Shown one piece after another: positions 31,851 through 64,000 of a stretch of DNA of 64,000 nucleotides. Position numbers and translations under genes: made by a program. Within the stretch, counting starts at the first letter, position 1; each line of letters begins with the position of its first letter. The notes beneath the pieces were generated by a model. The model saw only the letters and a program-made list of their open reading frames with translations, was not told the origin of the DNA and did not search any database. The DNA is taken from assembly GCA_043228905.1 (NCBI GenBank), contig JBHGNT010000006.1, positions 20,522,001-20,586,000 on the forward strand, given 5' to 3'. The DNA comes from Azolla caroliniana (lineage: Eukaryota > Plantae > Polypodiophyta).

Positions 31851-34412
31851 ACATAGAGGCAGTTAGAGCTCAAGAAGATTGTTGCATTACTATTCCCGTT
31901 GAACTACTTTACAAGGCTCATTTTCTCACTTTTATAATTAGGGTGACTAAGCCCTAACTATGAGAATGTGTTCACACTAGGAATACAATTGGGTGGAGTA
32001 GGGCTTTTAGTCCAACAAACTCCCCCATAAAATGTCTACTCTAATTGTTACAAAAAATTAGAGGTTATCTCCCCCGTAAACTTAAATTACAGTTTAATTT
32101 AAATTACAATTAGAATATATACAAGCTAGTTGGTTAATTGCCAAATCAAAAGTGGTAGAGTCGACTCGGGTCGGCTCCTGGGTCCTTTGGCCTTCAATTC
32201 TTCTGGTTAACTTGTTCTCGTGCCTCCTTTTGGATCTACGATTGTCTTTCGTCTTCTTCTACCCTTCACAGCTTTCTGCCTTTCGCCACTAAGTTTAGAC
32301 TCTACCTGTTTAACCATTTGACCCTTCCGATTTCTAACTCTCATGTTGATTCTTCAGATTCAACTGCCTTTTGCTCCTCAGCTTAATGTAGTCCCATTCA
32401 TCTCCTTAGTGCTCTAAAGCCATGATTTGGGAATGGCTTTGTTAGGATGTCAACAATGTTCACCTTAGTATCAACTTTCCAAACTTCGAGCTTCATGTTA
32501 GTGACGAGCTACCGGATATGTTGATACTTCACCTCAATGTGTAGCTTTCATCTTGGCATGATAGACAGGATTCATACGAGGTGGATTGCGCTCTGTGAAT
32601 CGCAATACAAAGTCCGAGTGGGATGGTCGATTCAACTTTTTGCCGAAAAGTCAACCGCCAAATTGCTTCTTTTGTTGCTTTCGCCACGGCAATGTACTTG
32701 ACCTTTGTTGTTAAGAGTGTTGTACATTCTTGGAGCTTTGACCTCCATGATATTGCTCCCCCTTGGTAGGTGAAGATGTAGCCTGATGTCGATTTTTGAT
32801 TGTCAAGGTTGTCAGCATAGTCGAAATCAGTAAAGCCTTTGACTTCGTTCAAATGGTCTAATATGAATGTCAGTTGTATGTCCTTGCTTCCATGAAGGTA
32901 GCGGGATATGTGTTTACAACTTCCTAGTGCTTCTTTCTGGGATTAGATATGTAGCGAGTGGTGGCGCCTATGGCATAGGCAAGGTCGGGTTGGGTGGCCA
33001 CCATTGCATACATGAGACTTCCTACGACCGATGTGTAGGGTATTTTGCTCATGAGCTTAGTCTCAACTTCTATAGGGGGAGACTCCCTGGTTGATAGTCG
33101 GATCGACGTCGGGAGCGAAGTTGGTGCCGACTTCGATTTATCCATCTTGAATCGCCTCAACACCTTACAGATATAGTAATATTAGGAGAGGTGTAGGATC
33201 TTCTTCGTCTGATTTCCCTCTATCTGCATGCCCAAAATATGTTCGGCTTCTCCGAGTTCCTTCATCGAGAATTTCTCGTGAAGTTGTTGTTTCAGTTTCC
33301 CAAATTTGGCTTTATTGCTTCCGGTGATGACAATGTCGTCAACATACAGGATCAGGTAGATCCGAGACTCGAAGTCCAATTGTCGAATGTACACACATTG
33401 GTCAGAGTCAGACCGATTGTACCCAAGCTGCCGGATGTAGGAGTCAAACTTCTAGTACCACATCCTTGACACTTGCTTTAAGCCGTAAAGGCTTTTCTTC
33501 AGTCAACATACGATGTGACCTTACTCTCCCATCGCCATCAAGCCTGCCAGTTGAGACATGTAAATGTCTTCTTCTAGATCTCTGTGTAGGAATGTCGTCT
33601 TGACGTCCAATTGCTCAAGCTCCAAATCTTTTGTCTCTACCACTCCTAGTAGGAGCCGAAGGATCTTCATCTTGACTACGGGAGACAATATCTCATCGTA
33701 GTTGAGGCCTTATTCTTGTTTGAATCCCTTCGCTATGAGACAAGCTTTATACCTGGGTTGATCTGAATGAGATACATATTTGTAGCAGTAAACCCATTTT
33801 AGGGTAGTAATTTCCTTCTGACTGACAATTCAACTACTTCCCATGTGTCATTTTGTCAAATTGAGTCCATCTCAAATTGCATGGCGTGTTGCCATGTTTT
33901 GGCATCCGGTGCAACTATTGCTTCTTCATAAGTGCAAGGTTCGCCTGCATCCCTATAGCTGACGTAGTCCATCCCCAGTGGTTGAACTCTATCGACTTTC
34001 GTACTCGTCCAGATCTCCTCAGTGCTAAACTGTTACATTCGGATTCTTCGACTTGAGCGCTTGGTCGGTCGGCATTCTGTGAACTCTTGTTCAAATTTGG
34101 AGATTTACTTGGGGATATCCGCTCTAGCAATGATATTGCTTCTGTGTAGGATCTACCCCTTCTTCGGGAGTATTTGAATAGTGAGTTGGTGCCTTGACCG
34201 GTTTGGATCAATTATTTAGCATTGTGGATGATTTGGCCCTGGTCATTTTCTAGCCAATTGGAATTCGGTTATTGAACCATTTGCCGATTCAGGTTCAGCT
34301 TGGGGTTGTTGACTGAATTAGGTTTGACATTGGGAGAGATCAAAACTAACTCTCTTGTCGATTCAGGGTTGTGTTTTGCCCGCGATGATCGAGTCTTCAT
34401 TGAAGACCACGT

Positions 34413-36390
34413 TGTCATGATGTGGCGTGCTCGAGGGTGGGAAAAACCGGCGAAAAGGGGGTCAAAAATGTGCATGTGCAATGTGTGTGCACACAAAAGC
34501 GATTAATTGTGCATATGCAAAATAAAAAGGAAAAGAAAGGGTAAAAGGGAGGTATAGAAGCTCGTGCAAAAAGTAAGAGAGAGGTGAGATAAAGGGTAGA
34601 GGGGAGACAACCTATAAATTTATAGAGATAGAATTATATATTATATAAGAAAGAGTTAGTGGGTTAGTGGATGGTCACATTGACTACTAGCTAGAGATGC
34701 ACGGTTCAAATCTAGTCTTATAATGTAACGTGATTTAAGGAATTTTATTCCTTTTTCATTGAAGACAAATTTGGCGACCCCTCCCTTCTTTTTTTCCTAT
34801 AAAAGGAGGTCGAGGGGGGCTCATTTGGAAGGACGTTTTGGGAGGAGGAGACTATCACCAATTTTCCTTCGAAGCTCTTCATCTCCTTATTCACCACTTT
34901 TCTTCATCTCATACCCCTTCATCCCCCCATCGCCACGTGCTCGTGAGCCCAAGCTTCGTTGGCTCGACGTTGCTCCTCCCCATTCGTCGTTGCAAGCCCG
35001 TGTGCTTGCCGTTTGGGTGGTCGTGATTCGTTGGGATTGGCATTTTGGTGGTGCTCGTGTGTTCGTCTTCGCCGTGTTCGGTTTTGCCTTGTCTCTAAGG
35101 GCATTTAATATTTATGTTTTGATTGAGCTTGTGGTTAACTATAAGTTGCCATTGTAAACAAAACCCTATTTTATAAACGGTCCTCTTGCATTAGAATCAA
35201 ACACGTATTTAACTCTTTGGTCAATATCGTTCGTGTTTCTTTCTCTCCTTCTTTCTTTATTCGTGTCTTGTACGTTCAGTCGTCTTGTGACGAGGGGACC
35301 GTTCGGGCTTGCCCATGCACCTCTCCTCCTCATAAAGGCATACGAGCATTTTGTGCGTGTGTTTTGTGTCTTCCTCGTACGTTCGACGTCTTGTCACGAG
35401 GGAGCGTTCAGGCGCGCGCCCATGCACCTCTCCTCCTCATAAAACCGTACGGACATTCGTGTTTGTGTTATCGTCCCCTTGTGCGTTCATGTTGCGTGCT
35501 CATCTTGCTTGTACTCGTTTGGTCACTTGGCTCGTACGGTGATCTCGGAAGGTCGACGAGTCGTGATCAACGAGAGCCACCGGCCTCACAAAACAAAAGG
35601 GGAACGAGACCTTGCTCGGGAAGGGGTGGGGAAGTAGTATTGTCATAAACCAAACCTCGTGTCTTCTTTATCCCTTGAGTACTCCCTAGTCCGAAACCCC
35701 CGTGGTCCCGCCCAAGTAACACGCGCGCGCGAAACTTCGTGACATAAATTGGTGAACCCGACGTGAAAGGGCGGCAAGGGAGAACCAAGATGCGAGGAGG
35801 AGAACTCGTTGAAGCGATGGCGGCGGCGGCGGACCGCTTGGTAAATGCCCGAGAAGGCATCACCGGTCTAGACCGGGCCATAGAGACGATGGTTAGCACA
35901 ACGGAGCGGTTCAATGGAAGAGATATCATGAGCTACTTGGATGCCTATAAGGCCGAAATGCTTATGCGAAACGTCCCCGAAGATAGGCGGCTAACCAGAT
36001 TCGCTAGAGTGGTAACGCCGAGTATCCACGCGGAGGTATTCGAGATCCAAGCGAACTGTTGCAATTGGGTGGAGTTCGAAGAAAGACTCCTCGAGAAGTA
36101 CGGCCTTGATGACTCACTCAGAATTTCGAAAAGGGATCTAATGGAGTGGGTTGAGCTTCCCGGCAAGGGGAGAAATACTATGGTACTTTTACAAGAAGTT
36201 GAGAAGCGCTTCGCGCGACTCTCGACGCTCGATAGGATGGTGCTTGACACAAGCAAGGTCCTGCTATTCATAAAGACTGTTGATGCACGAGACCGAGAGA
36301 AGGTGGGGTCCCTCCTCGAAACTGATGATGGGCTCACGACGGATTGGGCTATGGTAAAACGGGTTTGTAGCCGCTTCAATAAGAGAAGGG
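34413..36390 (+). mobile_element. tRNA-Trp-primed Gypsy, 5' part: LTR 34413-35744, PBS, gag N-terminus (35790-36390)
   Basis: TGTCATGA..CGTGACA LTR with CCTATAAAAGG. PBS TGGTGAACCCGACGTGA is complementary to the plant tRNA-Trp 3' end. Gag is clearly homologous to 61070-61627. Confidence 0.9.
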
Positions 36391-36889
36391 AATTGCAATG
36401 AACTGTCCCCATCGACCAAGAAGGCAGGTAAATCAAATAACCGCTAGTACTAATAGTACTAAACCCGAGTCTATTTCTCTAGGTGTGTCTGATAGTCCTA
36501 ATAGCCCAAGCCTTTCAAACAAATTTGAAATCCTTAGTCAGCTAGAAGAAGAGTTAAATGATTAAGTCCAATCGAAATAGGAGTTCTTTGGTTGGACAAC
36601 CCTAGATCTGTGCAACCCATTAGTGGTTCCATTTCCTCTAACCAAGTTAGCAATGTGTTCTTAGCTTAAGTAATGGTTAGTACTAAAAGTACTCCTCCAG
36701 TACATGAAGCCAACTCTTGCTTCCGAAGCCAACTCTTGCTCATCAGATATCCCTAAGAAAACTTTCTTGCCCAAGATTTGTAGTAGTTATTGATGGTCGT
36801 CCCATTACTTCCAAAAAAATCGTAGAGGAGTCAAAGCTAATTCAAGTTGTCCTACATAACTTGGTGTGTGTAGTATCATTTAATATAAT

Positions 36890-37329
36890 TGTTGAGCGGC
36901 AAGCTCAACCGGATCCGGATCGGCTGGATAAGCCTGAGCCGGATGGGCATCCGAAACCAAGAGCCGGATCGGTATCCGGGTCGGAGAGCCGGATTCGAGC
37001 ACGAACCGAAAGCCCAATAGTAGCCTAGACTACTAGGTAATCATTGTCTCGTAGTTAGTATCAATCGCACGTAGGAACATTGAAGTACACTGTACTTCTG
37101 TTAGTCCTTCTGAGGACTTGTATAAATAGTGTTGTGTAAGCACATTGTATGAAAAGAGTCTACAAAGTTTTTATTTTTTTGAATCTACATTTACGTTATG
37201 GTCTCTCTGTCTCTCTCTCCCGCGTATACTCTCTGTGTATTAAGCTTCTCCATTAAACCATCATCTTATTCTCTGTTGCTATCCGGCTAAGTCGGTTTTG
37301 TCTAATGCTTCCGCACGTTAACATTCACA
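36890..37329. mobile_element. Solo LTR nested in the chromovirus protease
   Basis: TG..CA termini; TSD ATAAT at 36885-36889 and 37330-37334; host reads SFNII|SSLDHPIVLG across it. Confidence 0.88.
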
Positions 37330-38008
37330 ATAATTAGTAGTCTAGATCATCCAATTGTCTTGGGGTTACTGTGATTCGAATTACATAACCCATACATAGA
37401 TTGGAGAACAAGAGAAATCCGGTATCGACAAATCTGAGAATCTACTCATAAGATTGCAACCATTTCGCTACAACGATTGCGTGAGGAAGGACGCAAGGAA
37501 GCAATGTTTATCTTCGCGGTATCAGTAAAACCTTCCAACACTATTAAAGAGAAATCCATAGTTCAACTTCCATAGAAGTATCGTCAGTCTGTCGATGTGT
37601 TCAATAAGGTACAAGCCAATACGCTTCCTCACCACCGACCGTATGATTGCCCCATCGATTTACAACCGGGAAAAGAGCCACCACGGGGACCGATCTACAA
37701 TTTGTCACCAACCAAGCTAGAAGTCCTTCGAGCCTATATAGAAGAGAATTTGGCAAACAGTTTCATTCGACATTCCAAATCTCCATCCGGCACACCCATT
37801 TTCTTCGTCAAGAAAAAGGATGGATCACTTCATCTCGTCATAGACTATCGCGGCTTGAATAAGGTCACCATTAGGAATAGGTATTCACTTCCCCTTATCT
37901 CAAGTCTTTTAGAATGGATCAATGGTGCAAGGTTCTTCACAAAGATCGACTTACGAGGAGCATATAACCTCGTACAGATCCGACCAGGAGATGAATGGAA
38001 GACCGCGT

Positions 38009-39106
38009 TGTCGTGAAGTACGAAAGCTTCACATTAAAAGTCTACAATAAGATAAATACGTAACTAAAATAACATTTGATAATGTTTTATATATAAAGAT
38101 AATATTAACAACACATATGATAATATTATATATATGTAAAGAAAAATAATATATATATATAGATAAATATATTATATTACACGAACAAGAGAGGACTTGA
38201 ACCAATAACCCCACCCTATGACTCTCAAATCTTACCATTTACTCTATACTAGTAATAGACATAAAATAAAGCATACTTTATATTTACTTTATATTACATA
38301 AAGGATTTGCTTCATGATATAAAAATAAAGTTGTATGTTGAATTCAATAGTATTTTGAGACTCAAACCCACAACCTCATACACCAAAGTCAACACACCTA
38401 CCATTAGGCTAGGCCCTTTCTCTTTAAGATTATATTTTCATGTTTATTCTTATTGCATATATTGTTTCATACATAAAAGCTCAAATGAGCGAGATGTTTA
38501 TCATGCATCACATGCATTTCATGCACTACTTGCATGACTTGTACCCTCCAATGCATCATATGCATGGGCACACCTATTTAAATGGTGAAAGAGAAGATCA
38601 AAGAGATATGTATGAGATATCAATCAAATTATGTATTACATAAGAGATACCATAAAAATAGAGAAAGAGGGGAAGAAGTTGAACATAAACATGGAGCTCT
38701 AGCTTGGCGGTCGTGGTGGTCAACTCTCAACAAGAGGGAGGCGGTTCGAGCCTTATCTTCATCAAAATATTGAAGTGAAGATTATAGTGGTCTACGATCA
38801 AGAAAGAGAAGAGCGATTACCTTGCAAGACAAAGTTCGGAGGTTCAACGACGTGCACAATCATTTTGTAACTCTTTCATGAAAATGATTATAAATTTCAT
38901 ACACTTTCTCATATATTATTTTATATCTTATCTTGTCTTATCTTATATTCCTTAAAAATCCTATTTTGTCATATCTTATTGATCTCTATTCACTCCATCT
39001 CTACTCTTTCGTCTCTTCCGTCCATAATCCCAGTGATTCCTTCCTCACTTTCACGTTATCCTTTGTGTGCGCAACGCTACGCTTCTAGGCGAGCCACGTC
39101 ACGACA
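38009..39106. mobile_element. Solo LTR nested in the chromovirus RT
   Basis: TGTCGTG..CACGACA termini; 4-bp TSD GCGT/ACGT; removing it restores [15 protein letters not shown]. Confidence 0.9.
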
Positions 39107-42100
39107 ACGTTCCGTACTAGATATGGGCACTTCGAGTATACAGTCATGTCAGTCGGTCTCACTAATGCACCAACAGTCTTCTAGCACATGGCAAATGATA
39201 TATTCCAAGATCTCTTGGATGTTTGTTTGATCATCTATTTGGATGATCTACTGGTTTATTCGAAGACCCAAGAAGAGCATGATTCTCATGTATTGTTATT
39301 ACTAAAACGGCTTCGAGAACATTGTCTTTATGCAAAACTAGAAAAATGTAGCTTCGAGTGCAACCGGGTGGAATTTCTTGGCTATGTCATCTCCTCGGAA
39401 GGCATCTCTATGGATACAGCTAAGGTCAAAACTGTGGTAGAGTGGCAAACTCCACATGTTCATTGTAAGATGTGCAATGCTTTTTAGGCTTTGCCAATTT
39501 CTACCACAAGTTTATACATGATTACTCAAAGCTTATTCTGCCTCTCACACAACTTACGAAGAAGGCGCAGTCGTTTTTTTGGTCTAAAGAAGCGGACATG
39601 GCTTTTGAGAGTCTTAAGAAGGCATTTACATCAGCTCCTATTCTAACTCATGTTGATCCGGCAAAACCATTCATCATTGAGGCAGACGCGTCCAATTTCA
39701 CCTTGGGTAGCATTCTTTCACAACAAGGAGATGATGAAAAGCTACATCTTGCAGCTTTCCACTCACGCAAGTTTAACGCCACCGAAATCAACTATGAAAT
39801 TCACCATAAAGAGCTATTAGCAATAGTGGACTCTTTTACGCAATGGAGGCATTTCCTAAAGGGATCTTCTCATCAAGTCACTGTATTCAGTGATCACAAA
39901 AATCTTGCCTACTTCCAGAATGCTCGTGTATTAAATAGACGCCAAGCTCGGTGGGCCCAATTCCTCACTCGTTTCAACTTCAAAATTATATATCGTCTTG
40001 GGAAGCAGCAAGGGAAGGCAGATGTGTTATCGCAGCGCTCGTATCTAGCACTGCGACCTGGTGAGCCAACATTCGATAACCAAAACCAAGTAATCTTGGG
40101 ATCGGCACGACTGCAAGCAATGCGGATTTTCGATATGTCATTGGATTCCCACATTATCGATACCCTATGTGAGGACTTGAAGACAGATGCTTTCGCTCAA
40201 GCCATTCTAGCACAAATTGATCCCTCTCAGGCATCTTGTTCACAATCGTAACAACCAGGTACGGATTATCGACAATTCGAATGTCATGATGGATTACTAT
40301 TCTTTAAGAAACTCGTGTATGTTCCTAATGGTTCTTGTCACCTTCGAGAAGTCAAAAAATGTCAGACACATATAGAGATGGGCATTTTGGTAGTACTAAA
40401 ATGTTAGATTTAGTACAAGGATAATTCTGGTGGCCTCATATGCGACGATTTGTCGAAGATTGTGTTCGGACATGTGATACATGTTGAAGAGCAAAGATGC
40501 CAAGACACCATTCATATGGTTTATTGGAACCATTACCAATTCCAAGCAAGCCGTGGCAATCCATTGCTTTAGATTTCCTCACATATATTCCAGTCTTTAA
40601 GGGATTCAATGCGATCTTAACAGAAGTAGATTGATATACAAAGATGACCCATTTCTTGCCATGTATTAAGGAAATCACTAGTGAAGAAACCGCTGAAACT
40701 GTCATGCGTGATGTATGTCAGCATCATGGCCTCCCTGACAGTATCATCAGCGACCGTGCACCCCAGTTCGTCTCGAAATTCTGGAAGCACCTCTTCAAAA
40801 TGCTCAAGGTCACTTGTAACCTCTCCTCATGCTACCACCCGCAAACAGACGGACAAGCAGAACGAACAAATCAATATGCTTGTTTGATGATAGCTTTGAT
40901 TTGTTCGTTCTTGTGCAGAGGATCGTTTGGAGTGGCTACACAAGATACAGGTGGATTTATCTATTCATTTACAACAAGCTCAACAAACACACAAGGATTA
41001 TGCAGATCGTCATCGGCTTCCATCCAGTTTTAACATTGGAGATCGGGTATGGCTATTACGACGACACATCAAGACTACTCGGCCATGCGATAAATTGGAT
41101 TATTGGCGTCCTTTCCATATTATCAGATAAATTAATGATGTCACTTTTTGTCTCGATCTACCTCCGCAACTACGGATACATCCGATATTTCATAACCCTA
41201 TTAGGAAAGCTCTATCCTAGGTCGTATCAAACCACCTCCACCCCCGACCGAACTTGAAGATGGACTTGAGTACAAGGTTGCCACCATCCTCGATTACAAT
41301 ATTGTTCGCAACAAGCTCTACTATTTGGTCAATTGGCTAGGATATAGTCCCAACGAGCGTACTTGGGAACCAATAGAGAATGTGACCAATGCTCGTGCTC
41401 TTCTCATCCTCAATCCAGAACAATTGTAACACTCGTCATTTTAAAGGGGGGATAGTGTCATGATATGCCAAGATTCAAACCCATGACCTTATGTTAAATG
41501 GGTCGAGCCCTTGCCATTAGACTATACATTGTAATACGAAGGATATTATTTTCATTAATTATTTCACTATAGAAAATTGATGTATATTCCAGATTTCTTT
41601 GGAACATTCTAGAAACTTTAGGAGTACTCCTGAAAACACTATATAAGGAGGCACAAGGCATTATTTCGAACCAAATCGATTCAACGCCAGTCTTAAGCCT
41701 CCTAGCTACTACTGTATATTCTCTTCACATAATATATATCTTTTGTTATCATCATTCTCTCTCTCTCTCTCTCCCTCTTTCCCTTTCTCGAGAGTTCTAC
41801 ACCTCTCTTAGTACTAATCGTCATCTTTTAGTACTAATTATTTCTCTGTCTTAATATTGTTCCTGACAAGATTCTTCAACCTGAGCGCTTGGTCGGTCGA
41901 CATTCTGTGAACTCTTGTCCAATGGAGATTTATTTGGGGATATCTGCTCTAGCAATGATATTGCTTATGTGTTAGATCTACCCCTTCCTCATGAGTATTT
42001 GAATAGTGAGTTGGTGCCTTGGCCGGTTTGGATCGGTCATTTGGCATTGTGGCTGATTCAGCCCTGGTCATTTTCTAGCCGATTGGAATTCGGCTATTGA

Positions 42101-44225
42101 ACCATTTGCCGATTCAAGTTCGGCTAGGGGTTTTTGACTGAATCAGGTTCGACATACGACATTTTAGCCTCTGAATCACATTGGGAGAGATCAAAACTAA
42201 CTCTCTTGCCAATTCGGGGTTGTGTTTGGCCCAATATGATCGAGTCTTCATTGAAGACCACGTCACTACTCCGAATTAATTTCTAGTTCTCTAGATCCCA
42301 TAGCTTGTAGCTAAATTCCCTGACCGTGAACTCTATCGCATTTAGGACTTGTCCAGATCTCCTCAGTGTTGAATTGTTAGGTTCACATTCTTCGACCTAC
42401 AGCCATGTTGGATCCAATATATGCATCTCGTTTATTTTTGCTCTCCGTACTTAGAATATGCTTTCATTTTGTTTACATCCCACTCTTTCTAATGTGTGCA
42501 TAGATTTAAAGTTCCTGAGCGCTTGGTCAGTCAGCATTCTGTGAACTCTTGTCCAATGGAGATTTATTTGGGGATATCCGCTCTAGCAATGATATTGCTT
42601 ATGTGTTGGATCTACCCCTTTCTTGGGAGTATTCGAATAGTGAGTTGGTGCCTTGGCTGGTTTGGATCGATCATTTGGCATTGTGGATGATTTGGCCCTG
42701 GTCATTTTCTAGCCGATTGGAAATCGGCTATTCAACCATTTGCCAATTCAGGTTTGGCTAGGGGTTGTTGACTGAATCAAGTTCGACATACAACATTTTA
42801 GCCTCTGAATCACATTGGGAGAGATCAAAACTAACTCTCTTGCCGATTCGGGGTTGTGTTCGGCCCGAGATGATCGAGTCTTCATTGAAGACCATGTCAC
42901 TACTCTGGATTAATTTCTGGTTCTCTGGATCCCATAGCCTGTAGTTGAATTCCTTGTCCGTCCCGTATTTGAGAAAAATTCATTTTGTAGAATGGGGTAC
43001 TAGCTTGATCCGTTTCTCCCTTGGTATGTATGTGTATGCATCAAACCCGAATATGTGAAGCCGATTGTAGGGCGGCTACTTTCCTGACCATAGCACATGT
43101 GGCACTTGAAGCCTAATTGCTTTTGATGGCCATAGATTTATCAAATACATAGCCATATCCAATGCTTTTGCCCAGAACTCCAGCTTCAGTCCTGCTTACT
43201 GGAGCATTGTCGTCACTCGTTCTTGGATTGTCTAGTTCATCCGTTCCACTACACCATTTTGCATCGGGGAGTATGGATCGTCCTTTGGTGCCAGATCCCT
43301 TTTTCAGACAAGTACTTGGTGAAGGCGTTGGAGGTATATTCCCCTTTGTCGTCCAATTGTAGCATTTTCACTTTGTAACCGAATCAGGTTTCGACTTCCA
43401 TCAGCCACCGAGTGAAAATCTCAAGCGCTTCATTCTTGGACTTAATTGAGTAAGCCCAAAATTTACATGTACAATCATCAATGAATGTGATGAAGTACCA
43501 TGAGCCTCCTAGAGATCTTTTGGGCATTATCCCGTAAATATCTATATGGATCAATTCTTGGGGTTGTCGTACCGTCTAAGCCCATAGATATCTGGCAACG
43601 TTAATTTGGTTGCCGGATGGGGTGCGATTAGATTCGGAAGAGCTTGCATCCCAATCTAATTTACGACCCTTTTTGTTTATCGACAAACCATCATCAATAT
43701 TATGGTCAGCCTTTCTACAATGTGTGCAGAAGGCATTTCACTTGCCATTCCATGACTTCGACTGTGGAAATTCATTTCTCCTCCTCGTCTAGCTTTGATC
43801 ATAGTTGGTCTTTTGAGCCATTCCTCTAGAGAAGTGTGCTTCGACATTGTCGTTGATGGTGAGTCCCATCGACTTTCTTCGAAGGTCTTCTTATAAGATC
43901 TATCTGATTCCTTCGTCAAGCATCAGCTTCGCCGAACTGTTCGTGACAGTCGTGCAAAAGACATCCCAACTTGCCACGAGACTCGAAAGGAGTGCAAGGG
44001 CTTTAATTTCCTTTGCAAAGTTCAATACTTGTGAGGAGAGTTCGGTCAACACCGAATTGAACGTGTTGATAGGAGAGGTTGTCGGCTCGGTTTCATTCAT
44101 CTTCATATTGAAAAATTGTTGAATCAATATAAGTCTTGACGAGCTCAACGTCTTTTCGTATACGGCTTGTAGCTTCTCCCACATGGCAAATGTCATCATC
44201 TCTTTACCCATATGGAAGTAGACGT

Positions 44226-44811
44226 TGTCGTGAAGATTTTCTGCAACAGTGTGAAAATTGTGTGCAACAAACGAAATCAAGAAGGTGCAATGTGCATGTG
44301 AGAAAGGGGTGAAGGCCACACGCATATGTTAGCATGTTGTAAATAGTACTGAAATGAGAATCGTAAAAGAAATGCTAGATGTAAAGTTAAACATGTGCAC
44401 ATGTGATGTGCGCTCAATTGTAAATATAAAATATAAGACTAAAGCCTATATTTTCTTTTCATATTCAGTATTTTGTAGGAAGCAAACATATAGAAACCGT
44501 GGGCACAAAACCATGGTTTTTGCATGGAGAGGCCTATAAAAGCCTATACTTGGGCTTGTGTAAGGGAGGGAAGTGATGTATGTAAAAAAAGAAACTCTTA
44601 ATCAAAGATCGGAGTTATCCTAATGGTGATGTATCTTGTCTCGTAAAATTAAAGTCAAGGGTTCAATCTCTCTCTCTCTCTCTCTCTCTCTTCATCCATC
44701 TATCTATCTTCAATACTTTCTCGCTTATGCTGCTAAAAACATTGAATCCTTCCAGTCCAGGACCCCGGTGGTCTCGCTTCATTTCGCAAACACACGAGGA
44801 TTTCCTCGACA
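44226..44811. mobile_element. Solo LTR nested in the Copia gag
   Basis: TGTCG..CGACA termini; 4-bp TSD ACGT/ACGC; internal CCTATAAAAG; removing it restores HLAE(S/N)VYFHM. Confidence 0.88.
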
Positions 44812-45309
44812 ACGCTTTCGGCCAAGTGCATTCAAATGGTCAATCTAACTATTTCGTCAAGGGATTGCCATTCGTCAGTTGTCATCGTTGCCATCCTAGA
44901 GTTGTGCCGAATTGTCTCGATTTGGCGTCAGATGATCCAGAGGGCAAAATTTTTGCCATCAAACTTACGTATTTTGCAGCCGGTTTCGGATGTCGAAACC
45001 ATGGTTCTAATGGAGATACAAAGAGGTTTAGGCACCATACAAGAGATGGAGATTAGGGTTTGGCTCAGTTCACACTTAACCCTAATTTCTCTTAGCTCTA
45101 ATGAAGGCTTAGGGAGATAGAAGAGGAGTTCTAATGGAACATTGGAAGGATAAATCTCAAGAATGGAGAAGGGCTACAAAAGACACCAAAAGGTGGCTTT
45201 TATAGCCTTTTACAAAGTGGTGTGCTTTTCTTCCACATTAGATTATCCCTCGGACTACATTGCGTCCTATTTGTTTTCTTCTATCCCCCCTTTCCTATGG
45301 CTAGTTGAG

Positions 45310-46535
45310 CTCTTTATCATTCATTGGTGCCACATTCTCCAAGACCGTTTTGTTAAGTGTCAAATTCTTAACAATAACTTCATCCAATTGTGTCCTCCAC
45401 ATGTCGAGGAATGTCTCCACACCTTCATTTTCTTTTAATTTTAGAGAAGTGAGTTTCTTGAGATGAGTTAGTACCTGTTTTGGTAAGTCAATATGTGAGT
45501 ATTTCATCTTTATAATTTCCCACATTGCATTTGCTAATTGTTGATTTTCCAAAATGTGAAGTTGCTTGTTTGCAACATTCAATATAATCTCTGATTGTGC
45601 AAAATTGTCATTAGCACCAGGATATTTTTCAAAGCCTTTGATGACATCCTACAGATCTAGTCTTTTGAGATAACTCTCCACTTTTACTCTCCAAGCGTGG
45701 TAGTTTGTATGATTTAATTTTTCGAGGCGGATTGATCAACACACCATTGTAGTCACCAATTGCCTTGGTGGTGTAGTTGTTGTTGGAGTGTCATGTGATG
45801 TAACACTTGGTGTTGGGCTCGCCATTGAATTATGAGAGAGAGATTTTCTCACTAAGTGACCTTGTTGTCTGGATCAAGAGAACCAAGGAATTGGTATGCA
45901 ATCTTCGTGATTTCTAAGGCTTGAGTGCTATCTGATACCATGTGTTAATAGAAGAAACAAAAGATAAGAGCATACAATGAATGATGAAATGATGGAATTG
46001 TATTAAGCGGAATAATGATTCTAACACTTATGATGAGTGTTTACACAAAACTTGGTGTTAAACCATATTTGTACTAATCACAAATGTGTCTTTTCATGAA
46101 GAGGTGTCTCATCATGTTGGTGCTATTTGATACCATGTGATAATAGAAGAAACAAAAGATAAGAGCATACAATGAATTATGAAATGATGGAATTGTATTA
46201 AGCGGAATAATGATTCTAACACTTATGATGAGTGTTTACACAAAACTTGGTGTTAAACCATATTTGTACTAATCACAAATGTGTCTTTTCATGAAGAGGT
46301 GTCTCATCATGTTGGTGTCTTTTCACATTATGCAACTCCAAGAGTTGCATTTTTTATTCATTAGTAAATAATTAATTAATGTTCGCATTTATTATTGTTC
46401 ATAACGACAATTTAAAAACGTCGTTAAGATAGTTAAAACTTCATAATAATGTTACATAATGTATAAAGGTCATTCATATATTTAAGGAATATTGCAAAAA
46501 TGTCCCAAAAAACATTAAGTTGTTCCTTTTAATCA
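45310..46535 (-). mobile_element. Truncated Copia 5' end: LTR (~45941-46535), tRNA-iMet PBS, gag; includes a 195-bp tandem duplication spanning the PBS/LTR junction
   Basis: PBS TGGTATCAGA at 45931-45940 (minus); gag LEKLNHTNYHAWRVKVESYL...AMWEII; duplication 45925-46119 / 46120-46314. The outer LTR end is approximate. Confidence 0.75.
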
Positions 46536-48894: not shown

Positions 48895-48927
<33 letters not shown>

Positions 48928-50931: not shown

Positions 50932-50964
<33 letters not shown>

Positions 50965-51088
50965 GGCGGCGAAATCAGGGGTGAAGAAGAAGGCAGGGGG
51001 TAGTCCAAGCGTCGGCGGCGGGAGGCTTCTGGGGGCCTGCCGCCGCATGCTGGGGCAGCTGGCCTTCAGATCGAAGCGGATCCCATGA
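49463..51088 (+). CDS. Intronless low-complexity protein of unknown function (up to 541 aa; true start uncertain)
   Basis: Long GC-rich ORF whose trinucleotide runs (poly-S, poly-P, poly-Q) stay in frame; no TE domains; family not recognised. Confidence 0.75.
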
Positions 51089-51968: not shown

Positions 51969-52024
<56 letters not shown>

Positions 52025-54350: not shown

Positions 54351-55172
54351 TAAGCACTCATAATCTATGCAATCATTGACATTGGACTCACAAAAACTCA
54401 TAACCTAAAGGTTGCAAAGCACAAGACAATTATATCTCAACTACCGAAATGGCCTGTCAAGTGCCTTCATTTTGTTAGTGGCTTTGAGTGACCATATGTA
54501 TCCTTTGGTTTGTGAAATATATTTTGGCAAGACAATTTGACAAACAAATAGAAATATTGTTTCAAATGACAAGGTTTTTGTTAAGTTTGAATGTTAATCT
54601 TAGGGCTTGCAAACCCTAAACCTACCTCATTGACCATTATTTGGTTTACATAATGTCTCAAATATCTATCACAATGACTAGGTAGGGGAACTCTTTTTAA
54701 GTTCGACCATTATCTTTACCAATGCAAATGTTAGTCATTTGGTAGCATACACTCACTTTCAAGTACTACCATTATATTTATCAATTCTAAAACCATGGTA
54801 CTTTGCCAAGCTTGGAGACAACAATGGTAGAGGATCAAGACCTCTTCACAATGCAGTCATCTTACCACTAGCAAACTTCCAACCTTCAGCTCCTCATAGC
54901 TGAGGATTTTGTCAATTACACACATCACTCTTAAATGATAGTGTTTAGAAAAGCTTAATTCGCTTCCAAGGGTTGAATACCTTATTTAAAACAAATCTAG
55001 CATAAAACACACATTAAACATAACCATCTTTTGTAATTCCCATATACCTCCAACTACTATATCCTTTTTCATGCAAGAAACTCTCATGAACAAGTAGAAC
55101 TCAAATTTTATCTAGCTAAGATGTTGCATCTTTCAGTTTTATCCATTCCTGTTATACATGATGCATTGTTTT

Positions 55173-55660
55173 TTTAATTTTCAGGTGACTACAAGCAGAA
55201 CATATGGAGCTGCTAATATGAGATTATAGATAAGATATGATTATAGGGGTCCATGTAGACAAATTCTCCAGGCCAGCCAACTTGGTATTGCTCACAAACA
55301 ATAAATCCCTTTTAACTCTGATTGCAACATTGGTTTAATTTTCAGGTGACTACAAGCAGAACATATGGAGCTGCTAATATGAGATTATAGATCAGATATG
55401 ATTATAGGGGTCCATGTAGACAAATTCTCCAGGCCAGCCAACTTGGTATTGCTCACAAACAATAAATCCCTTTTAACTCTGATTGCAACATTGGTTTAAT
55501 TTTCAGGTGACTACAAGCAGAACATATGGAGCTGCTAATATGAGATTATAGATAAGATATGATTATAGGGGTCCATGTAGACAAATTCTCCAGGCCAGCC
55601 AACTTGGTATTGCTCACAAACAATAAATCCCTTTTAACTCAGATTGCAACATTGGTTTAA
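55173..55660. repeat. 161-bp tandem repeat, 3 near-identical copies
   Basis: TCAGGTGACTACAAGC at 55181, 55342 and 55503; only about 2 substitutions seen among the copies. Confidence 0.95.
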
Positions 55661-56669: not shown

Positions 56670-56976
56670 CTACTCATCGCCACCGGACTCTGATCCAGCG
56701 GCCCCATCAACCTTGTTGTGCTTCTTGGCGTATCTCTGATTTCTCAGGAACTTGGGATCCATCTGCAAATACAGAGATGTGGGAGAAAGGTAGAAAACCC
56801 CAAGAATCAAATATCAACAACGGGAAGAGATCAAAGAGGGGGTAAAGATGGATGGGGAGGAAGGAGCAACTTACCCCTTTGGTGGAAGTATATTTGGTCT
56901 TCTTCACCTTCTTGATGCCATTCCTGTGGGCCTTGTAAGACTGATTGTGGGCGGTGTGGTTCTTCGACTTCGCCAT
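56670..56976 (-). CDS. RPL29: 60S ribosomal protein L29 (eL29); exons 56976-56875 and 56762-56670; 64 aa
   Basis: [23 protein letters not shown]...STKG|[17 protein letters not shown]; GT-AG intron. Confidence 0.98.
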
Positions 56977-57060
56977 AGCTGTAACTGTGGGGTGGGTGGG
57001 TAGCGTCTGGGAGGAAATGGGGGAGAGAAAGGCAGGCACAGGAAACAGAGAACACAAGAC

Positions 57061-57071: not shown

Positions 57072-58687
57072 CTTGAAGAAGAAAATGCTTTCACACTGAG
57101 TGCCCGGACATTGAAAACATGTGTCCGGCTTTGGCCAACATTACGTCGAAACCCCTATTTTACGTTAATGTTTGCCTCCAAGAGAGAGAGAGAGAGAGAG
57201 AGACTGCCCTGTCTTGTTAGGCTTGAAGTCTACAGAGATGTGTGTGCCTGCCTCATTAGGTTCTTCTATGGAAGTCTGATCGACCTGGTTTTTGGGATCC
57301 TGCATGGTTCTCGATCTGCCGGGGGCTCCTCGAATTGTTGTCGACTACTGCGACCAAGCAAGAGACACCAGGTCGTAAGCGTGATGAGCAGTCTCGAGTT
57401 TGAGCATCTCTATAAGGCTCGGCACTAGTTCGAGTGCTCGAACGCATTGTTCTTGGTTTGGCCAACATTACGTCGAAAGCCTTGTTTATGTTAACATACA
57501 CATATACGTTGTCGCGTTGTTACGCGCGTGCGTGGAGAACAAGGTGGAACCACCGGGGTCTTGGACCGAGAAATAGCTGAGAAGGAGGAGAACGGAAAGA
57601 CAACGGACACACTTGCACACGCACAGAAACGGGAGCACACAGGAATCACAGTCCAACAACACAGCAAAATGAGACGACTAGAAGTCCGAGTATATGAACA
57701 CGTATGTATATATATATATCAAGACGGTTACAACTAATAGGCCGGCAAGGCGAACACCGACGCCTGTTCACTCACACATAGAAGAGCGAGATGGAGACTC
57801 TACCGGAAGCACAAGGGCGTTCCACAAAGCAGAGTCAGCCTCCCGAAAACCTACGCAAAATGGCTATGGAGAGTGGCAGAGGAGAAGGGCTCGGTCCCAG
57901 TCCGGCAGCACTTCGTCCTCTCTAACGCGCGATACCCTTCCCATTCCTCTCCCTCTCTTTTATAGCCCAAGGAGGGAGGCCGTTATCATCCGTTACATCA
58001 CATTAATTCTCTATCCTTTCGGATAGAGATACACCTCGATTCTCTCCCTATTGACTGCGTGTTACCTAGGATTTCACCTCAACCGACTTGTACCTACCTA
58101 CTTACCATACAACGAAAAGTGTGCTCGCATGTAAGGGCCGGTTTACACATGCTAAACTCGGTTTCCGCCTAGGGACGGTTTTCTTCACGACATCTGCCCC
58201 CACCTAACCGCGCATCCACTAGTAGGCGCCAAAATTGGGCTCTTGATGGAGAAAACCGGTCCATGCTTTACTCCTCGTCTTTCGGATCGTCATCCGCCTC
58301 GGACCGCCCATCATCGTCGTCGATGCTTTCCAAATCCGGCTCGCGCTCATATCGTTTCTTAAATGCTTTGACCCTCTTCCCCGCTACCGGTATTGCCATC
58401 CTCGTACCGTCGAGCTCCGCAAGATGGCAGGTCCCGTTGTCGTTGGCGCCTGTCAACACGTAAGGCCCGAACCACCTCCTTGCAAACTTCCGCATTGCCA
58501 TGTGCTGGTTGTCGAGGCTGTTGTCATACACTAGGACCCAGTCGCCTTCCTCAATCTTCTTCAGTCGCAGTTGGTGAGTCCGGTCAAACCGCCCTTTGTT
58601 CTTCAACCTTGCCAATCGAAGCTTCTCCGCGGCTCGTTCCACGTCCTCCGGCCTTCGCTCGAGCTGTCGAATCTATGCCGCTAGCAG

Positions 58688-59147
58688 CTCCACTCCACCT
58701 CTTCTTCTTCTTCTTCTTCTTCTTCTGCTTCTGCTTCCTCCTCCTCCACGTCTGAGGAAGACGAGATCCGCCATACCTTCTGCCGCACCCTTCCCACATA
58801 CAATTCGCTCACTGTGAATCGCAGTGGCGGCGGTTCTTCCTCCTCCTCCTCCAAAGAATTCCTGCTTACCAAGCTGGAGAAGCGCTCTGATCTGCACCTC
58901 CGCTCCGCCTCCATGAGAGAGCCCTGCGCAGCTCTGTGCAGGAGGAGCTCTGTGAATGCGGATCAGGACCTGGAATCCACGAACTTAGAGGCTGTCAAGC
59001 GCGTGCTGCGATCTGCATACCTCAGGCCATCTTCTCTGACGGGGCAAAACGGGAGTCCCTGTAGCACCACCATGGCCAGGTATAATTCTGTGTGGGAGAC
59101 ATCTGTGCGGAAGAGTCCAGCCGAGAAGAGATGGGAGGAGGCAGAAG
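58688..59147 (+). pseudogene. Captured copy of 49730-50201 (coding fragment of the 541-aa gene)
   Basis: Near-identical sequence: 3 substitutions plus microsatellite-length differences, counted by eye. Confidence 0.97.
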
Positions 59148-61898
59148 TCCGTTACAGAAGTCGGCGATGACTTCGTACATCCCTTCCGAACATACCGGAA
59201 TCGTCCGGTCCTCTTTAAGGCCTCCTCCGACCACCTCTCGTAATTGTCCCAAGGTGTCGTCGAAAGAGACCGCCTCCACGGCTCCGTTGATTTCCTCTCC
59301 AGGGCCGAGGACTCCGCATGCCCGAAGTCGCTCCTCCGCCCTCTTCTTCTCCTTACCAACAATGCCGACAATCGTACAACCCCCGCTGTCAGAGAACCAA
59401 AATTTCCTACCTATAGTACAAGTCTTCTTCCCTACTGTACATTTGTGGGGTTTTTCCGGGGTGTCCGGACTATCGCGGCCCCACGCCTTGATAGCCCTCT
59501 CTAAATATCCCCTCGGGTTTCGCCACTGAGGGTCTCGCGGTTACGCTCATGGTTTGGTCGCACCGTCAAGAACTGGACCGAGTGACGCTCGTCCTGGCTC
59601 TTGACTCTTGCATAGGCCGAACCGTTGTCCAACACCTTGGTCTCCATCCGTGCCGCCATGATGTATGGTTCTCCTAGTATAACCGGATGTGAGGACGTCT
59701 CCTGCACGAAGAAGTGTTGGTCAATTTCGACATTGCCGATTTTCACCCGTACGTTCGGGCATGCTCCATGTAGTTCTTCCGTGGCGCGCGTCGTTGCCCG
59801 TATTTTCTAGCCGTGTTTGGTGTTGATCGGCCATTTCCCCTTTTTGTAGAAGTCCATGGACATCAAGTTGATTTCTGAACCGTGGTCCACCAACGCCACC
59901 ACCGGCTCCTGGACATCCCCGACCTTAACAAGGGTCTCCGTGGTCACTCTGGCCTAGTGCGGCCTCGAATAGTGGCTCTCCGCCAACTCGTCTTCTAGCG
60001 CCATGTCCTCTATGTGCGTCGTTCGCACTTCCACCGGTTTCTCCGGCTCTAGCTCTATCGACAGCCTCTTCCTCTTCACCAAGTCTACGACGGAGTCGTG
60101 GAACTCCTTCTTGGCGATCCCGAGCACTTCCTTCAGCGACAACTCCACTTTGCTGTCGAGGATACGTTCTTCCAAGACCTTTCGCAGGTCCGTGGTCCTT
60201 TCGATTTCCGTGCTCAACCGGTACCTAGCCTTCTTGGCTTTATCCAGTGCGCCGGTCGCACCGGCCTCATTCTGCCTTTGACCGAATCAGGTCTCGTACC
60301 GTTGCGAGGGCCCGGCCCCTCCGGTTTTACCTACTCGCTTGTCTTCCACCAGAGCCTCGTAGTTCTAGCATGCGGCTTCAACGAAGCCCGTCTTCTCTTC
60401 GACCGGGTCACTCCACCCGGTTACCTCCCGGACCCGTTTTTCCGCGCGGTCTGCTTCTTCTTTCCTTAGCCATGCGCCGGCGAGGCCTTCCAGCATCAAC
60501 GGCCAGAATCTGGCTTCGTTCATCTTCCATGCCTCACCACCTCCGACCCGGATCCCAACCGACGCCGAGTAGTGGACGGTCTCCGCGTGGCGAGCCGCCG
60601 CTTTTTCCATTAGTCATTTCATACCCCCTTGTCTGACATTCAAGTCCAGGGCCCTTCGGGTCTCGTTAGCGTGCACCCGACCGTTCCATAGGTACACCAC
60701 GTTGGCTCTCATTCCCTCGGTGAAGTCCCCGCAGTCCTTCCGAACGTGGCCGACCGCGTCGCACCACAAACACTGGTTTCGAGCCAGAGGCCTTCGGTCA
60801 TGGGCCTGTTCACCGCCGTCCCTCCGTGCCTGTGCAATCTGGAGGTCCTTTACCATCCTAGTCAGCTCCTCTAGAGCTACTCCTCCGGACGAGCCTTTGA
60901 CCATGCCGGTCGAAGTCGATCCGGTCTCGAGCCAGTCTCGGGTCTCTTCCCTTCGCGCTGGCGGGGTTGGCTCGAGTTTCCTTGTTGCTATAGAGCCCGC
61001 CCCTATTGATCCTTTATCGACCCACTCTCGCCGTTTGTCGAAACGGCCACTAACTCTCTGCACCACGGCCTAGTCAGTCGTCAGCCCGTCATCAGTCTCC
61101 AGCAGGAGACCCACTTGCTCTCGGTCCCTCGCATCCACCGACTTAACGAACAACAGGACGCGACTTGTGTCTAGTACGGTCCGGTCGAGCGCCGAAAGAC
61201 GCGCGAAGCGTTCTTCAAACTCCCGGAGGAGCACCGACGCGTTTCTCCCCTTTTCGGGGGTCTCTACCCATTCCATGAAGTCCCGTTTCGAGAGCCGAAG
61301 CGCGTCATCAAGCCTGTATTTTTCGAGGAGCCGACCTTCAAACTCTTCCCAGGTCTGGCTCTCAGCCCGTACCTCGAGCACCTCCGCATGGATGCCCGGC
61401 ATCGCCAACCGAGTGAATCCGGTCAGTTGCCTTTCTTCCGGAATGTCTCTCATTACCATCTCGGCCCGGTAGGCCTCCAAATAGCTCGTGGCGTCCTTCC
61501 CACCGAACTGGCCTATCGTGCCGACGACTGCTTCAATAGCCCTATCGAGGGCGCCTGCACCTTCGCACGCACTCACTATCCGATCCACAGCCGAAGCCAT
61601 GGTTTCCGCGAGATCCGACCCCCTCATCTTTCTATTCCTCTGCCGCCCGTTTCACGTCGGGTTCACCAAATATGTCGCGTTGTTACGCGCGTGCGTGGAG
61701 AACGAGGCGGGACCACCGGGGTCTTGGACTGAGAAATAGCTGAGAAGGAGGAGAACGGAAAGACAACGGACGCACTTGCACACGCACAGACATGGGAGCA
61801 CACAGGAATCACAATCCAACAACACAGCAAAACGAGACGACTAAAAGTCCAAGTATATGAACACGTATGTATATAAATAAATAAATAAATAAATATAT

Positions 61899-62195
61899 GG
61901 GTTGCAGCATGGGAATGGGAACAATTAGTTATGTCCTTGACATAGCTAATTAGCTATCTAAAAAGCTACATGTAATTTGTATATTTTGGCAATTTTAGGG
62001 ATGATTAGAATTTGAACTCAAATAAAGACTAGCTAAACGGTGGAACATAAATGGTAATATTTCCATCCCCATCATAAATGATACATATCTTTAAGATCTT
62101 CCTACGAAAAATTAGCTATAAAAAAAACTATTTAGCTATGGTCAATTTACCAGCTAAATAGCTATAATAGTGTTTCCATTCGCATGCTTTCACCC
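61899..62195. mobile_element. MITE inserted in the (TA)n tract of the 5' LTR
   Basis: Absent from the sister LTR; imperfect ~28-bp TIRs GGGTTGCAGCATGGGAATGGGAACA / TGTTTCCATTCGCATGCTTTCACCC; TA-repeat flanks. Confidence 0.85.
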
Positions 62196-64000
62196 ATATA
62201 TACTATATATATATATATATATATATCAAGACGGTTACAACTAACAGGCCGGCAAGGCGAACACCGACGCCTGTTCACTCACACATAGAAGAGCGAGATG
62301 GAGACTCTACCGGAAGCACAAGGGCGTTCCACAAAGCAGAGTCAGCCTCCCGAAAACCTACGCAAAATGGCTATGGAGAGTGGCAGAGGAGAAGGGCTCG
62401 GTCCCAATCCGGCAGCACTTCGTCCTCTCTAACGCGTGATACCCTTCCCATTCCTCTCCCTCTCTTTTATAGCCCAAGGAGGGAGGCCGTTATCATCCGT
62501 TACATCACATTAATTCTTTGTCCTTTCGGACAGAGATACACCTCGATTCTCTCCCTATTGATTGCGTGCTACCTAGGATTTCACCTCAACTGACTTGTAC
62601 CTACCTACTTACCATACAACAAAAAGTGTGCTCGCGTGTAAGGGCCGGTTTACACACGCTAAACTCGGTTTCCGCCTATGGACGGTTTTCTTCACGACAA
62701 TGTGTGCCTGCCTCGTTAGGTTCTTCTCTCAACGACTGACCAACTTGCTCTGTGGGATCCTGCATGGTTCTCGATCTGTCAAGGCCTCCTCGAATTGTCG
62801 TCGACAACTACGGCCAAGCACGACACACCTAGGTGTAAACGTGATGAGCAGACTCGAGATTGAGCATTCTGATGAAACTCAACACTAGTTCAAGTGCTCA
62901 AACATTTAAGCATGTGTCCTGCTTTGGCCAACATTACGTCAAAATTCTTGTTTACATTAACGTCCACTGAGAGACTACCTCATTAGGCTTGAATCATAGT
63001 TGTGCCTCCCCTGTTGGGTTCTTCTATGGATGACATATCAACCTAGTTTTTGGGATCTTGCATCTATCAGGGGCTCCTCAAATTGTTGTCAACAATTGCT
63101 ACCAAGCAAGAGACACCTTGGCGTAACGCAAAGAGCATTCTCGAGATCGAGCATCCAATGAGACTTGGTGCTAGTTCTTCTTACGATCTTGATCTCTAGA
63201 CTATACATATAGAGGAGCATTGATTGAGACTCGATGGTCAAAAGAATAATGGATCAATCTTATCTTATAAGTCATCACACCCAAAAAAAGTAGTCGTATC
63301 GAAAAACAAGTAGCATTGAGAATAACGCAATAGATTATGAGATTCCACATGGTATCAAATAGATTGATGTCTTGATTATTAACGTTAACATCAAGAGTTC
63401 AAGTATGAGGCATTGCAACTCATGTGTTATCTTCTCTATAAAGAGTGATCTTCTTTTTTCTTTTTTTCCAAAAAAAGATACTACATTAGTATTAGAAAAT
63501 GCCATAAGGCTAAACATACAAGATATACCACAGATCTCCAATATTTTTCTAAATTCTAATTTCTAACCATCGGCTTAAATAAATACTTTGGTGTTGAGTA
63601 AAACCACTCCACCTTACCAAAAAGCCATCTATAAAATATACCTATGTCCCAGATGGCATGAAACTCCAAGCGCTCAAGCTCCGCTTGGTGCATATTACCT
63701 TTTATACAATCCAACAACCTTATGAGATTATGCACAATCTCTATCCAAATTCCCGAATTTATTTGGGCAGGTCTTTCAGTCACATTTTGAAATACCTTCA
63801 AACATCAAGCCTTCCAAATATACCAATTTGTAATACTACTTACCAATTGCCATATTTGAGGTTTATCAATTTGTATTTGTGGATTCAAAGGTATCAATTT
63901 TTTTTCCATCAAACCATGTCTCATCACAATAGCATCTACAACCTCCTCTTGTTCATATACCATAGGTTTATCATGTACCACTGGCCATAATACTGCACCC

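What the first reader, a model, noticed from the sequence alone, without database searches (positions are those of the whole stretch)
34409..62703. Four independent LTR insertions share an (A/G)CGT 4-bp target site
Seen: 34413 has left flank ACGT (right end lost), 38009-39106 has GCGT/ACGT, 44226-44811 has ACGT/ACGC, and 57510-62699 has ACGT/ATGT. All have TGTC...GACA ends but otherwise dissimilar LTRs. Every TSD mismatch is a transition. The other LTR insertions here have unrelated 5-bp TSDs (CTTAT, CATCG, GGTAG, ATAAT). Established: most plant LTR elements make 5-bp TSDs with weak sequence preference. Inference: a Gypsy lineage with an integrase preferring a CpG-centred palindrome (the ACGT core of bZIP/bHLH sites), which could bias insertion to methylatable TE DNA or cis-elements. 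The sample is only four sites.
Basis: partly seen in the sequence, partly recalled or inferred. Interest (0 to 1): 0.7.

Follow-up and report, generated by a model that had tools for sequence, protein, structure and literature searches.

The report
CG-targeting Phygy-type retrotransposon insertions
These four insertions come from one group of related plant jumping genes that duplicate four bases with a CG in the middle where they land; they are most likely Phygy retrotransposons, for which this habit is already published, so the finding is real but largely ordinary.

Summary
All stated ends and flanks are in the window. A 4-bp duplication beats 3 and 5-7 bp at all three two-ended elements. Empty sites in public runs skip element + 4 bases (1102 in 4 of 4 runs; 590 in one contig). 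The four are separate insertions of one lineage: two carry the same 18-nt primer site and related gag, and both solo LTRs match LTRs lying before that primer site elsewhere. Relatives encode gag-protease plus RT-RH-INT without extra RNase H or chromodomain. Of 26 outside flanks, 25 are NCGN, 12 RCGY and 4 ACGT. The motif is therefore CG-centred, not the ACGT cis-element core. This matches Phygy: 4-bp NCGN duplication and tRNA-Trp primer (PMC6317226), a lineage also reported in ferns (PMC13477047), the likely host. Membership could not be tested by phylogeny. One small addition: targets avoid 5' T and 3' A (VCGB, 24 of 25 versus 41% expected). All three mismatches are C-to-T changes in CG/CHG context. 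Verdict: real, and a new member of a known kind.

The parts
34409..34412 (+). Left target-site copy ACGT of element A, inside a Copia-like coding stretch; right copy lost
   Evidence: uninterrupted paralogues at 42260-42267 and 42894-42901
34413..35744 (+). 5' LTR of element A (1332 bp, TGTCATG...CGTGACA)
   Evidence: 97% over 813 bp (LTR end into gag) to L016
35750..35767 (+). 18-nt primer-binding site, likely tRNA-Trp (tRNA identity recalled)
   Evidence: exactly 18 positions conserved among 121 outside junctions
35790..36413 (+). gag N-terminus of element A, truncated; Tcn1-like sequence follows
   Evidence: 93% aa identity to L016 gag; 68% nt identity to element D gag
38005..38008 (+). Left TSD GCGT of solo LTR B (matches the empty site)
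38009..39106 (+). Solo LTR B (1098 bp) in the RT of a Tcn1-like chromovirus
   Evidence: 3' end 85% over 169 bp to the L115 LTR end before the same primer site, E 7e-46; host RT and RH by Pfam
39107..39110 (+). Right TSD ACGT of B (G-to-A beside the LTR's CA, CHG context)
44222..44225 (+). Left TSD ACGT of solo LTR C (C-to-T before the LTR's TG, CHG context)
44226..44811 (+). Solo LTR C (586 bp) in a minus-strand Copia-like gag
   Evidence: start matches LTRs in L077, L056, L001, L075 (E 1e-38 to 3e-15) and end matches L109; host frames
44812..44815 (+). Right TSD ACGC of C (matches the empty site)
   Evidence: joint 44221->44812 with 3 letters fitting either side
57506..57509 (+). TSD copy ACGT of element D
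57510..58192 (-). 3' LTR of element D (683 bp)
   Evidence: 24 substitutions in 683 columns against the 5' LTR
58193..58205 (-). Polypurine tract of D
   Evidence: the same tract precedes 11 of 34 candidate LTR starts in outside loci
58271..58690 (-). Integrase C-terminal remnant of D
   Evidence: 66% aa identity to L016 pol 1037-1176; 74% to L014 pol
58688..59147 (+). 460-bp filler copied from 49730-50201, in place of RT, RH and most of INT
   Evidence: 96.6% identity; junctions
59504..61630 (-). gag-zinc knuckle-protease ORF of D with six stop codons
   Evidence: DUF4100 at E 7e-5, weak Asp protease match; 84% aa identity to L015; stops
61651..61668 (-). Primer-binding site of D, identical to that of A
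61673..62699 (-). 5' LTR of D, carrying a roughly 324-bp secondary insert at about 61886-62209
62700..62703 (+). TSD copy ATGT of D (C-to-T at CG)

Best explanation
The four LTRs are separate insertions by related families of one Ty3/gypsy lineage, most likely Phygy, that duplicate a 4-base target with CG at its centre, and the integrase itself likely picks that site. Shown: 4-bp duplication, CG centre, a shared 18-nt primer site, TGTCG...CGACA ends, and a two-ORF gag-PR / RT-RH-INT build in relatives. Inferred: the integrase cuts the two strands 4 bp apart, which needs a sharp bend at the central base step, as in foamy-virus integrase (the best solved match). CG is a flexible pyrimidine-purine step. 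The near-exclusive choice of CG over TA, CA or TG, and the avoidance of 5' T and 3' A, imply added base contacts. After insertion the copies were likely methylated, and deamination at CG and at the new CHG made by the LTR's terminal TG/CA likely produced the three mismatches. Unequal recombination likely left B and C as solo LTRs; A was truncated, and D lost RT-RH-INT.
For: TSD length. One lineage. Motif in outside loci: 19 of 22 under the fixed rule (p about 1e-21); 25 of 26 curated, or 25 of 28 with the two doubtful calls kept; VCGB 24 of 25 against 41% (p 1e-8). In the runs that hold this window, contigs with unrelated flanks (agreement 0.34-0.41) stop aligning at 44222, four bases outside LTR C (44, 52, 45, 11 contigs in 4 of 4 runs), more often than at the LTR end 44226 where that row is listed (27, 23 in X1, X4; X7 is the exception, 11 against 13). 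Domain order with no aRH or chromodomain at E <= 0.01. Phygy features in PMC6317226 (passages, section 3 part 2, Additional file 5). Bend mechanism in PMC4422553 (abstract and discussion part 1); foamy-virus integrase match E 2e-21. Methylation-type decay: 19 of 22 LTR-LTR transitions in CG/CHG context.
Against: No REXdb or Physcomitrium Phygy sequence was in reach, so no tree places these elements. The 120 listed pol homologues (of 219) named only Riccia sorocarpa, and the cluster look-up gave no organism. TatI also has a 4-bp TSD and a Trp primer (n = 4). The tRNA-Trp identity of the primer site is recalled. Outside flanks are one-sided and come from metagenome contigs of unnamed hosts; only 33 of 121 junctions yielded an LTR start. 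The start rule was set, though it uses no flank letters except to drop PPT and reversed-PBS cases. Family D (about 7.1 kb if whole, estimated) is slightly below the published Phygy range of 7.7-10.0 kb. The bending and base-contact steps are by analogy only.
Confidence: 0.85

Rival explanations
1. The elements are a separate Trp-primed, non-chromovirus sister lineage (or TatI-like elements without aRH) that shares the CG-centred target with Phygy.
For: No Physcomitrium-named hit among the 120 listed homologues. TatI shares the 4-bp TSD and Trp primer. Phygy was defined from one moss only.
Against: TatI has aRH in 100% of its 4 elements, and none was found in the six pol ORFs scanned. Every Phygy trait that could be tested is met. 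Homologues run continuously into a liverwort (66% aa over 750 residues), and Phygy is reported in a liverwort and in ferns.
Confidence: 0.1
2. The site is chosen through methyl-CpG or through chromatin, steering insertions into silenced TE DNA, rather than by naked-DNA sequence and shape.
For: Three of the four window copies sit in other retroelements' coding DNA and the fourth in a repeat. At least 6 of 24 outside left flanks are TE sequence, 4 of them this lineage. Phygy nested in Tcn1 was the commonest of the repeated nested pairs reported in P. patens (PMC6911290 passages). CG is selected far above other flexible steps.
Against: No chromodomain or other reader domain in the relatives' pol. 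Outside flanks are not CpG-depleted (o/e 0.90 against window 0.69). The window is TE-rich and there is no genome baseline. In retroviruses local base preference is largely independent of chromatin (PMC4422553 abstract).
Confidence: 0.12
3. The integrase targets the ACGT core of bZIP/bHLH elements or strict RCGY.
For: All four window targets are RCGY. RCGY is enriched among outside CG sites (12 of 25 against 18%, p 5e-4).
Against: 13 of 25 outside CG sites are not RCGY (CCGT 4, ACGG 5, CCGG 2, GCGG 1, TCGC 1). ACGT is 4 of 25 (p 0.064). VCGB describes the data better (24 of 25).
Confidence: 0.03
4. Chance, or 5-bp TSDs read with shifted boundaries.
For: Each two-ended TSD has one mismatch; a shifted 5-bp reading with one mismatch exists at B and C.
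Against: Empty sites skip exactly element + 4. The TGTCG/CGACA ends recur in outside copies (CGACA in 111 of 121 LTR ends). CG lies at -3/-2 in 19 of 22 flanks and at no other offset in more than 4.
Confidence: 0.01

Closest known systems
Phygy (Ty3/gypsy non-chromovirus lineage, REXdb; PMC6317226)
   Same: 4-bp TSD with NCGN preference (100% of 186 elements), Trp primer (81%), no aRH, chromodomain or extra ORF, size near 8.6 kb (family A about 8.4 kb, estimated from its LTR and L016), nesting in Tcn1 (PMC6911290).
   Different: Defined from Physcomitrium patens; the host here is probably a fern. The finer VCGB bias is not in the passages read. Placement by tree was not possible.
TatI (OTA superclade; PMC6317226 Additional file 5)
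   Same: 4-bp TSD and tRNA-Trp primer.
   Different: TatI carries aRH in all 4 elements; none found here. No NCGN preference is listed for it.
Selgy (PMC6317226 Additional file 5)
   Same: 4-bp TSD, short non-chromovirus.
   Different: tRNA-Ala primer, about 5 kb, no listed motif.
ZAM of Drosophila (PMC2527525, abstract)
   Same: Gypsy-type integrase that itself binds a CG-containing target (CGCGCg).
   Different: Insect element with a longer and stricter consensus; no sequence relationship was tested.
Prototype foamy virus integrase (PMC4422553)
   Same: 4-bp stagger with a flexible central YR step; best solved sequence match to the relative's integrase (E 2e-21).
   Different: Retrovirus with a weak palindrome that accepts any YR step; here CG is nearly exclusive.

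Membership tests
Phygy | RT-RH-INT phylogeny groups with the Phygy clade (the formal definition) | not testable with these tools
   REXdb fasta and Additional file 1 too large to read; no named P. patens homologue among the 120 listed; two searches gave no useful taxa.
Phygy | 4-bp TSD | tested here: met
Phygy | NCGN target motif | tested here: met
   4 of 4 window targets; 25 of 26 curated outside flanks, 19 of 22 under the fixed rule
Phygy | PBS complementary to tRNA-Trp | tested here: inconclusive
   An 18-nt TGG-starting site is conserved at exactly 18 positions, and its complement occurs in a cloned P. patens small RNA (PMC1838911 Table 1 passage). The Trp assignment is recalled; no call named the tRNA.
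Phygy | Gypsy order GAG-PROT-RT-RH-INT, no chromodomain, no aRH | tested here: met
   Pfam on six pol ORFs and two gag ORFs of relatives; the window copies themselves lack RT and RH.
Phygy | Length 7.7-10 kb, interior nearly all polyprotein | tested here: inconclusive
   No whole element was held. Family A about 8.4 kb and family D about 7.1 kb, estimated from window LTRs plus about 5.7 kb of interior in L016 and L014.
TatI | Additional archaeal-type RNase H | tested here: not met
   No second RNase H family hit at E <= 0.01 in any of six pol ORFs, four of them full or near full length.
Selgy | tRNA-Ala PBS and about 5 kb length | tested here: not met
   Estimated lengths of 7-8.4 kb exceed the 4.4-6.7 kb range; the primer site reads as Trp by recall.
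Chromoviruses (Tcn1, Galadriel, Tekay) | C-terminal chromodomain | tested here: not met
   No chromo family hit; the integrase tail ends in a short acidic stretch.

The most novel reading that the evidence does not exclude
This integrase reads a VCGB palindrome and prefers it methylated. That would give a chromodomain-free plant retrotransposon a direct DNA-level route into silenced TE DNA, conserved from bryophytes to ferns. It also avoids TCG and CGA, the triplets in its own LTR termini.
Probability: 0.12. Interest if true: 0.7.

Novelty: new member of a known kind. Interest (0 to 1): 0.22.

Why it matters
Mainly as annotation. It shows that the one plant LTR lineage with a published target motif is multi-family and keeps that motif in a probable fern. 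A 4-bp CG-centred TSD that decays by deamination is easily missed by pipelines demanding perfect TSDs; all three pairs here are mismatched. The VCGB refinement gives a sharper motif for a structural test of how a Gypsy integrase reads DNA. It would matter more if CG choice depended on methylation, which is untested.

Tried and rejected
No genome was held, so the genome-wide TSD logo could not be built. The primer-site pattern found 0 matches in viral contigs. Seeking a named P. patens Phygy protein failed; 'DUF4100' found 0 papers, and its link to Physcomitrella is only recalled and not used. The NRAMP tree left the host unresolved; 'probably a fern' rests on best named near-full-length hits (Adiantum 77%, Ceratopteris 76% and 74%). 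A longer palindrome was dropped: position -5 was pyrimidine in 17 of 22 left flanks, but the matching +5 position was mixed in the six right-hand or empty sites seen. The GAAGACC shared upstream of A and B did not recur directly before any flank printed. Three window frames were off by one and are void (redone). Rows dropped before counts: L013 (duplicate of L014) and L060 (bacterial-looking chance match); 11 PPT-preceded and 1 reversed-PBS starts; two doubtful starts (L024 GCTC, L046 AGGA), kept and in the 25 of 28 count and left out of the 26; L009 (ATGT) and a second L051 candidate fell outside the rule. The loose-end table listed no LTR terminus. PMC13469084, PMC9916801, PMC11358816 and PMC12877858 (passages only) added nothing. 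Earlier scan notes returned nothing.

Full report
Observation. Testing duplication lengths 3-7 at the three two-ended elements, 4 bp leaves one mismatch each and 5 bp leaves 4, 4 and 5. The four control elements have perfect 5-bp duplications. Laying public contigs on 34300-39300 gave an empty-site joint skipping 1102 bases, the 1098-bp LTR plus 4, in 4 of 4 runs; the ATAAT control skipped 445 = 440 + 5 in 3 of 4 runs. On 44140-44900 one contig in 1 of 4 runs skipped 590 = 586 + 4. These joints keep GCGT at B and ACGC at C as the original targets. At 34413 the right end is lost, and two paralogues in the window show the uninterrupted site.

Anatomy. Element A is a 1332-bp LTR, an 18-nt primer site and a truncated gag. 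B and C are solo LTRs in a Tcn1-like RT and a Copia-like gag; the host labels rest on Pfam RT/RH hits and on motifs I recognised by recall. D is a minus-strand element with two LTRs, primer site, polypurine tract, gag-protease with six stops, and only the ends of pol. A and D share the primer site and 68% nucleotide identity in gag. The four LTRs do not align with each other beyond short words (best E 0.006), but B, C and D begin with the same 10 bases on their sense strand.

One lineage. All four window LTRs match LTRs in these loci: A to L016 and L070, B to L115 (85% over 169 bp up to the primer site), C to L077, L056, L001, L075 and L109, D to L064, L035, L041 and L046. Relatives encode gag-protease (DUF4100) and a second ORF RT-RH-INT, with no extra RNase H or chromodomain at E <= 0.01. 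L016 is 93% identical to A's gag, and L015 84% to D's gag-protease. The only named homologues among the 120 listed of 219 were from the liverwort Riccia sorocarpa.

Target motif. Among 121 junctions, 33 had an LTR start (TGTCGTG 450-1400 bases upstream), giving 34 candidates: 11 preceded by the polypurine tract, 1 by a reversed primer site, 22 by flank. CG lay at -3/-2 in 19 of 22, against 5.5% in the same flanks further out. The rule was set after viewing. Adding four starts found by similarity and two right flanks and dropping two doubtful starts gives 26 sites: 25 NCGN, 1 ATGG, 12 RCGY, 4 ACGT. With the doubtful two kept it is 25 of 28. No two left flanks aligned with each other at E <= 1e-5. 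Of 25 CG sites, 24 have no T first and no A last (VCGB), against 41% of NCGN words in the window and 42% in the flanks (p 1e-8); the four window targets also fit. In the runs holding this window, contigs with unrelated flanks broke off four bases outside LTR C, at 44222, in 44, 52, 45 and 11 contigs. At 44223 they broke off in 21 and 28, and at the LTR end in 27, 23 and 13, where the majority letters resemble the polypurine tract. The table is cut and the aligner's mismatch tolerance is unknown, so this supports a shared CG-containing flank but not exact proportions.

Mismatches. At B and C the changed base is a C (or G on the other strand) placed in CHG context by the LTR's own terminal TG/CA; at D it is the C of CG. 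D's LTRs differ at 24 of 683 columns, 22 by transitions, 19 of those in CG or CHG context. Five of D's six stop codons are TAG or TGA directly after a C. Deamination of methylcytosine is inferred, not shown.

What is known. PMC6317226 (passages, section 3 part 2, Additional file 5) states that Phygy alone among plant lineages prefers NCGN: 186 elements, 4-bp TSD in 100%, tRNA-Trp primer in 81%, no extra domain. Its Additional files 1 and 3 could not be read and may bear on both membership and VCGB. PMC6911290 (passages) reports GC-rich centres in 4-bp TSDs and Phygy nested in Tcn1 in P. patens. Phygy is reported in a liverwort (PMC12885004, passages) and in ferns (PMC13477047, one passage). 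The host's NRAMP has ferns as best named near-full-length hits, but the tree was unresolved. Searches for 'NCGN' with 'retrotransposon' (3 papers) and 'Phygy' (18 papers) showed no finer motif in the listings or in the passages read.

Mechanism. Shown: 4-bp duplication, CG centre, VCGB bias, one lineage. Inferred: intrinsic site choice by the integrase. In retroviruses a 4-bp stagger needs a severe central bend and favours YR steps, largely independent of chromatin (PMC4422553, abstract and discussion part 1). The relative's integrase matches foamy-virus integrase best among solved structures. Bending alone does not explain why CG is chosen over TA, CA or TG, so base contacts are likely; ZAM integrase binds CGCGCg directly (PMC2527525, abstract). 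Methyl-CpG reading remains open: at least 6 of 24 left flanks are TE sequence, but flanks are not CpG-depleted (o/e 0.90 against 0.69) and there is no baseline.

Verdict. A correct observation and a largely correct inference that rediscover a published property of Phygy. It works like Phygy on every trait tested; formal membership awaits a tree. New member of a known kind, interest 0.22.

Noticed in passing
window 58688-59147 and 49730-50201: Element D lacks about 900 codons of pol (RT, RH, most of INT). In their place is a 96.6% copy of part of a host-like 550-aa ORF lying 9 kb away (49436-51088, no Pfam hit), with short shared words at both joints. Likely templated filler repair in place.
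   Followed up: partly
window about 61886-62209: A roughly 324-bp insert with imperfect inverted ends (TGGG...CCCA) sits in a TA-rich microsatellite inside D's 5' LTR; MITE-like.
   Followed up: no
window 34402-34408 and 37998-38004: The targets of A and B are both preceded by GAAGACC although they lie in unrelated host elements; not repeated in outside flanks, so probably chance.
   Followed up: partly
L014, L075, L056, L026, L071 and others: 11 of 34 LTR starts are preceded by the polypurine tract while the same LTR is followed by a primer site: tandem elements or collapsed assemblies.
   Followed up: no
window 35750-35767: The complement of the primer site occurs in a cloned Physcomitrella small RNA listed as a miRNA candidate (1-39 in PMC1838911). 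By recall this is ppt-miR894 and probably a tRNA-Trp 3' fragment.
   Followed up: partly
window 11563-13686, 17894-19777, about 56860-56980: Host genes: an NRAMP metal transporter (+), a PPR protein with an E motif (+), and a short minus-strand stretch that reads like ribosomal protein L29 (recalled, not tested).
   Followed up: partly
window 3091-3564, 4617-8910, 6174-6608, 36890-37329: Control LTR insertions with perfect 5-bp TSDs; the 3091 solo LTR is an inverted relative (73%) of the 4617 element's LTR and ends in TT.
   Followed up: yes
L008, L034, L035, L078: Four outside copies are inserted into gag, protease or integrase of their own lineage.
   Followed up: no
window 45925-46317, 55162-55660, 21642-22139: Short tandem duplications (195 bp x2, 161 bp x3, about 170 bp x3).
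   Followed up: no
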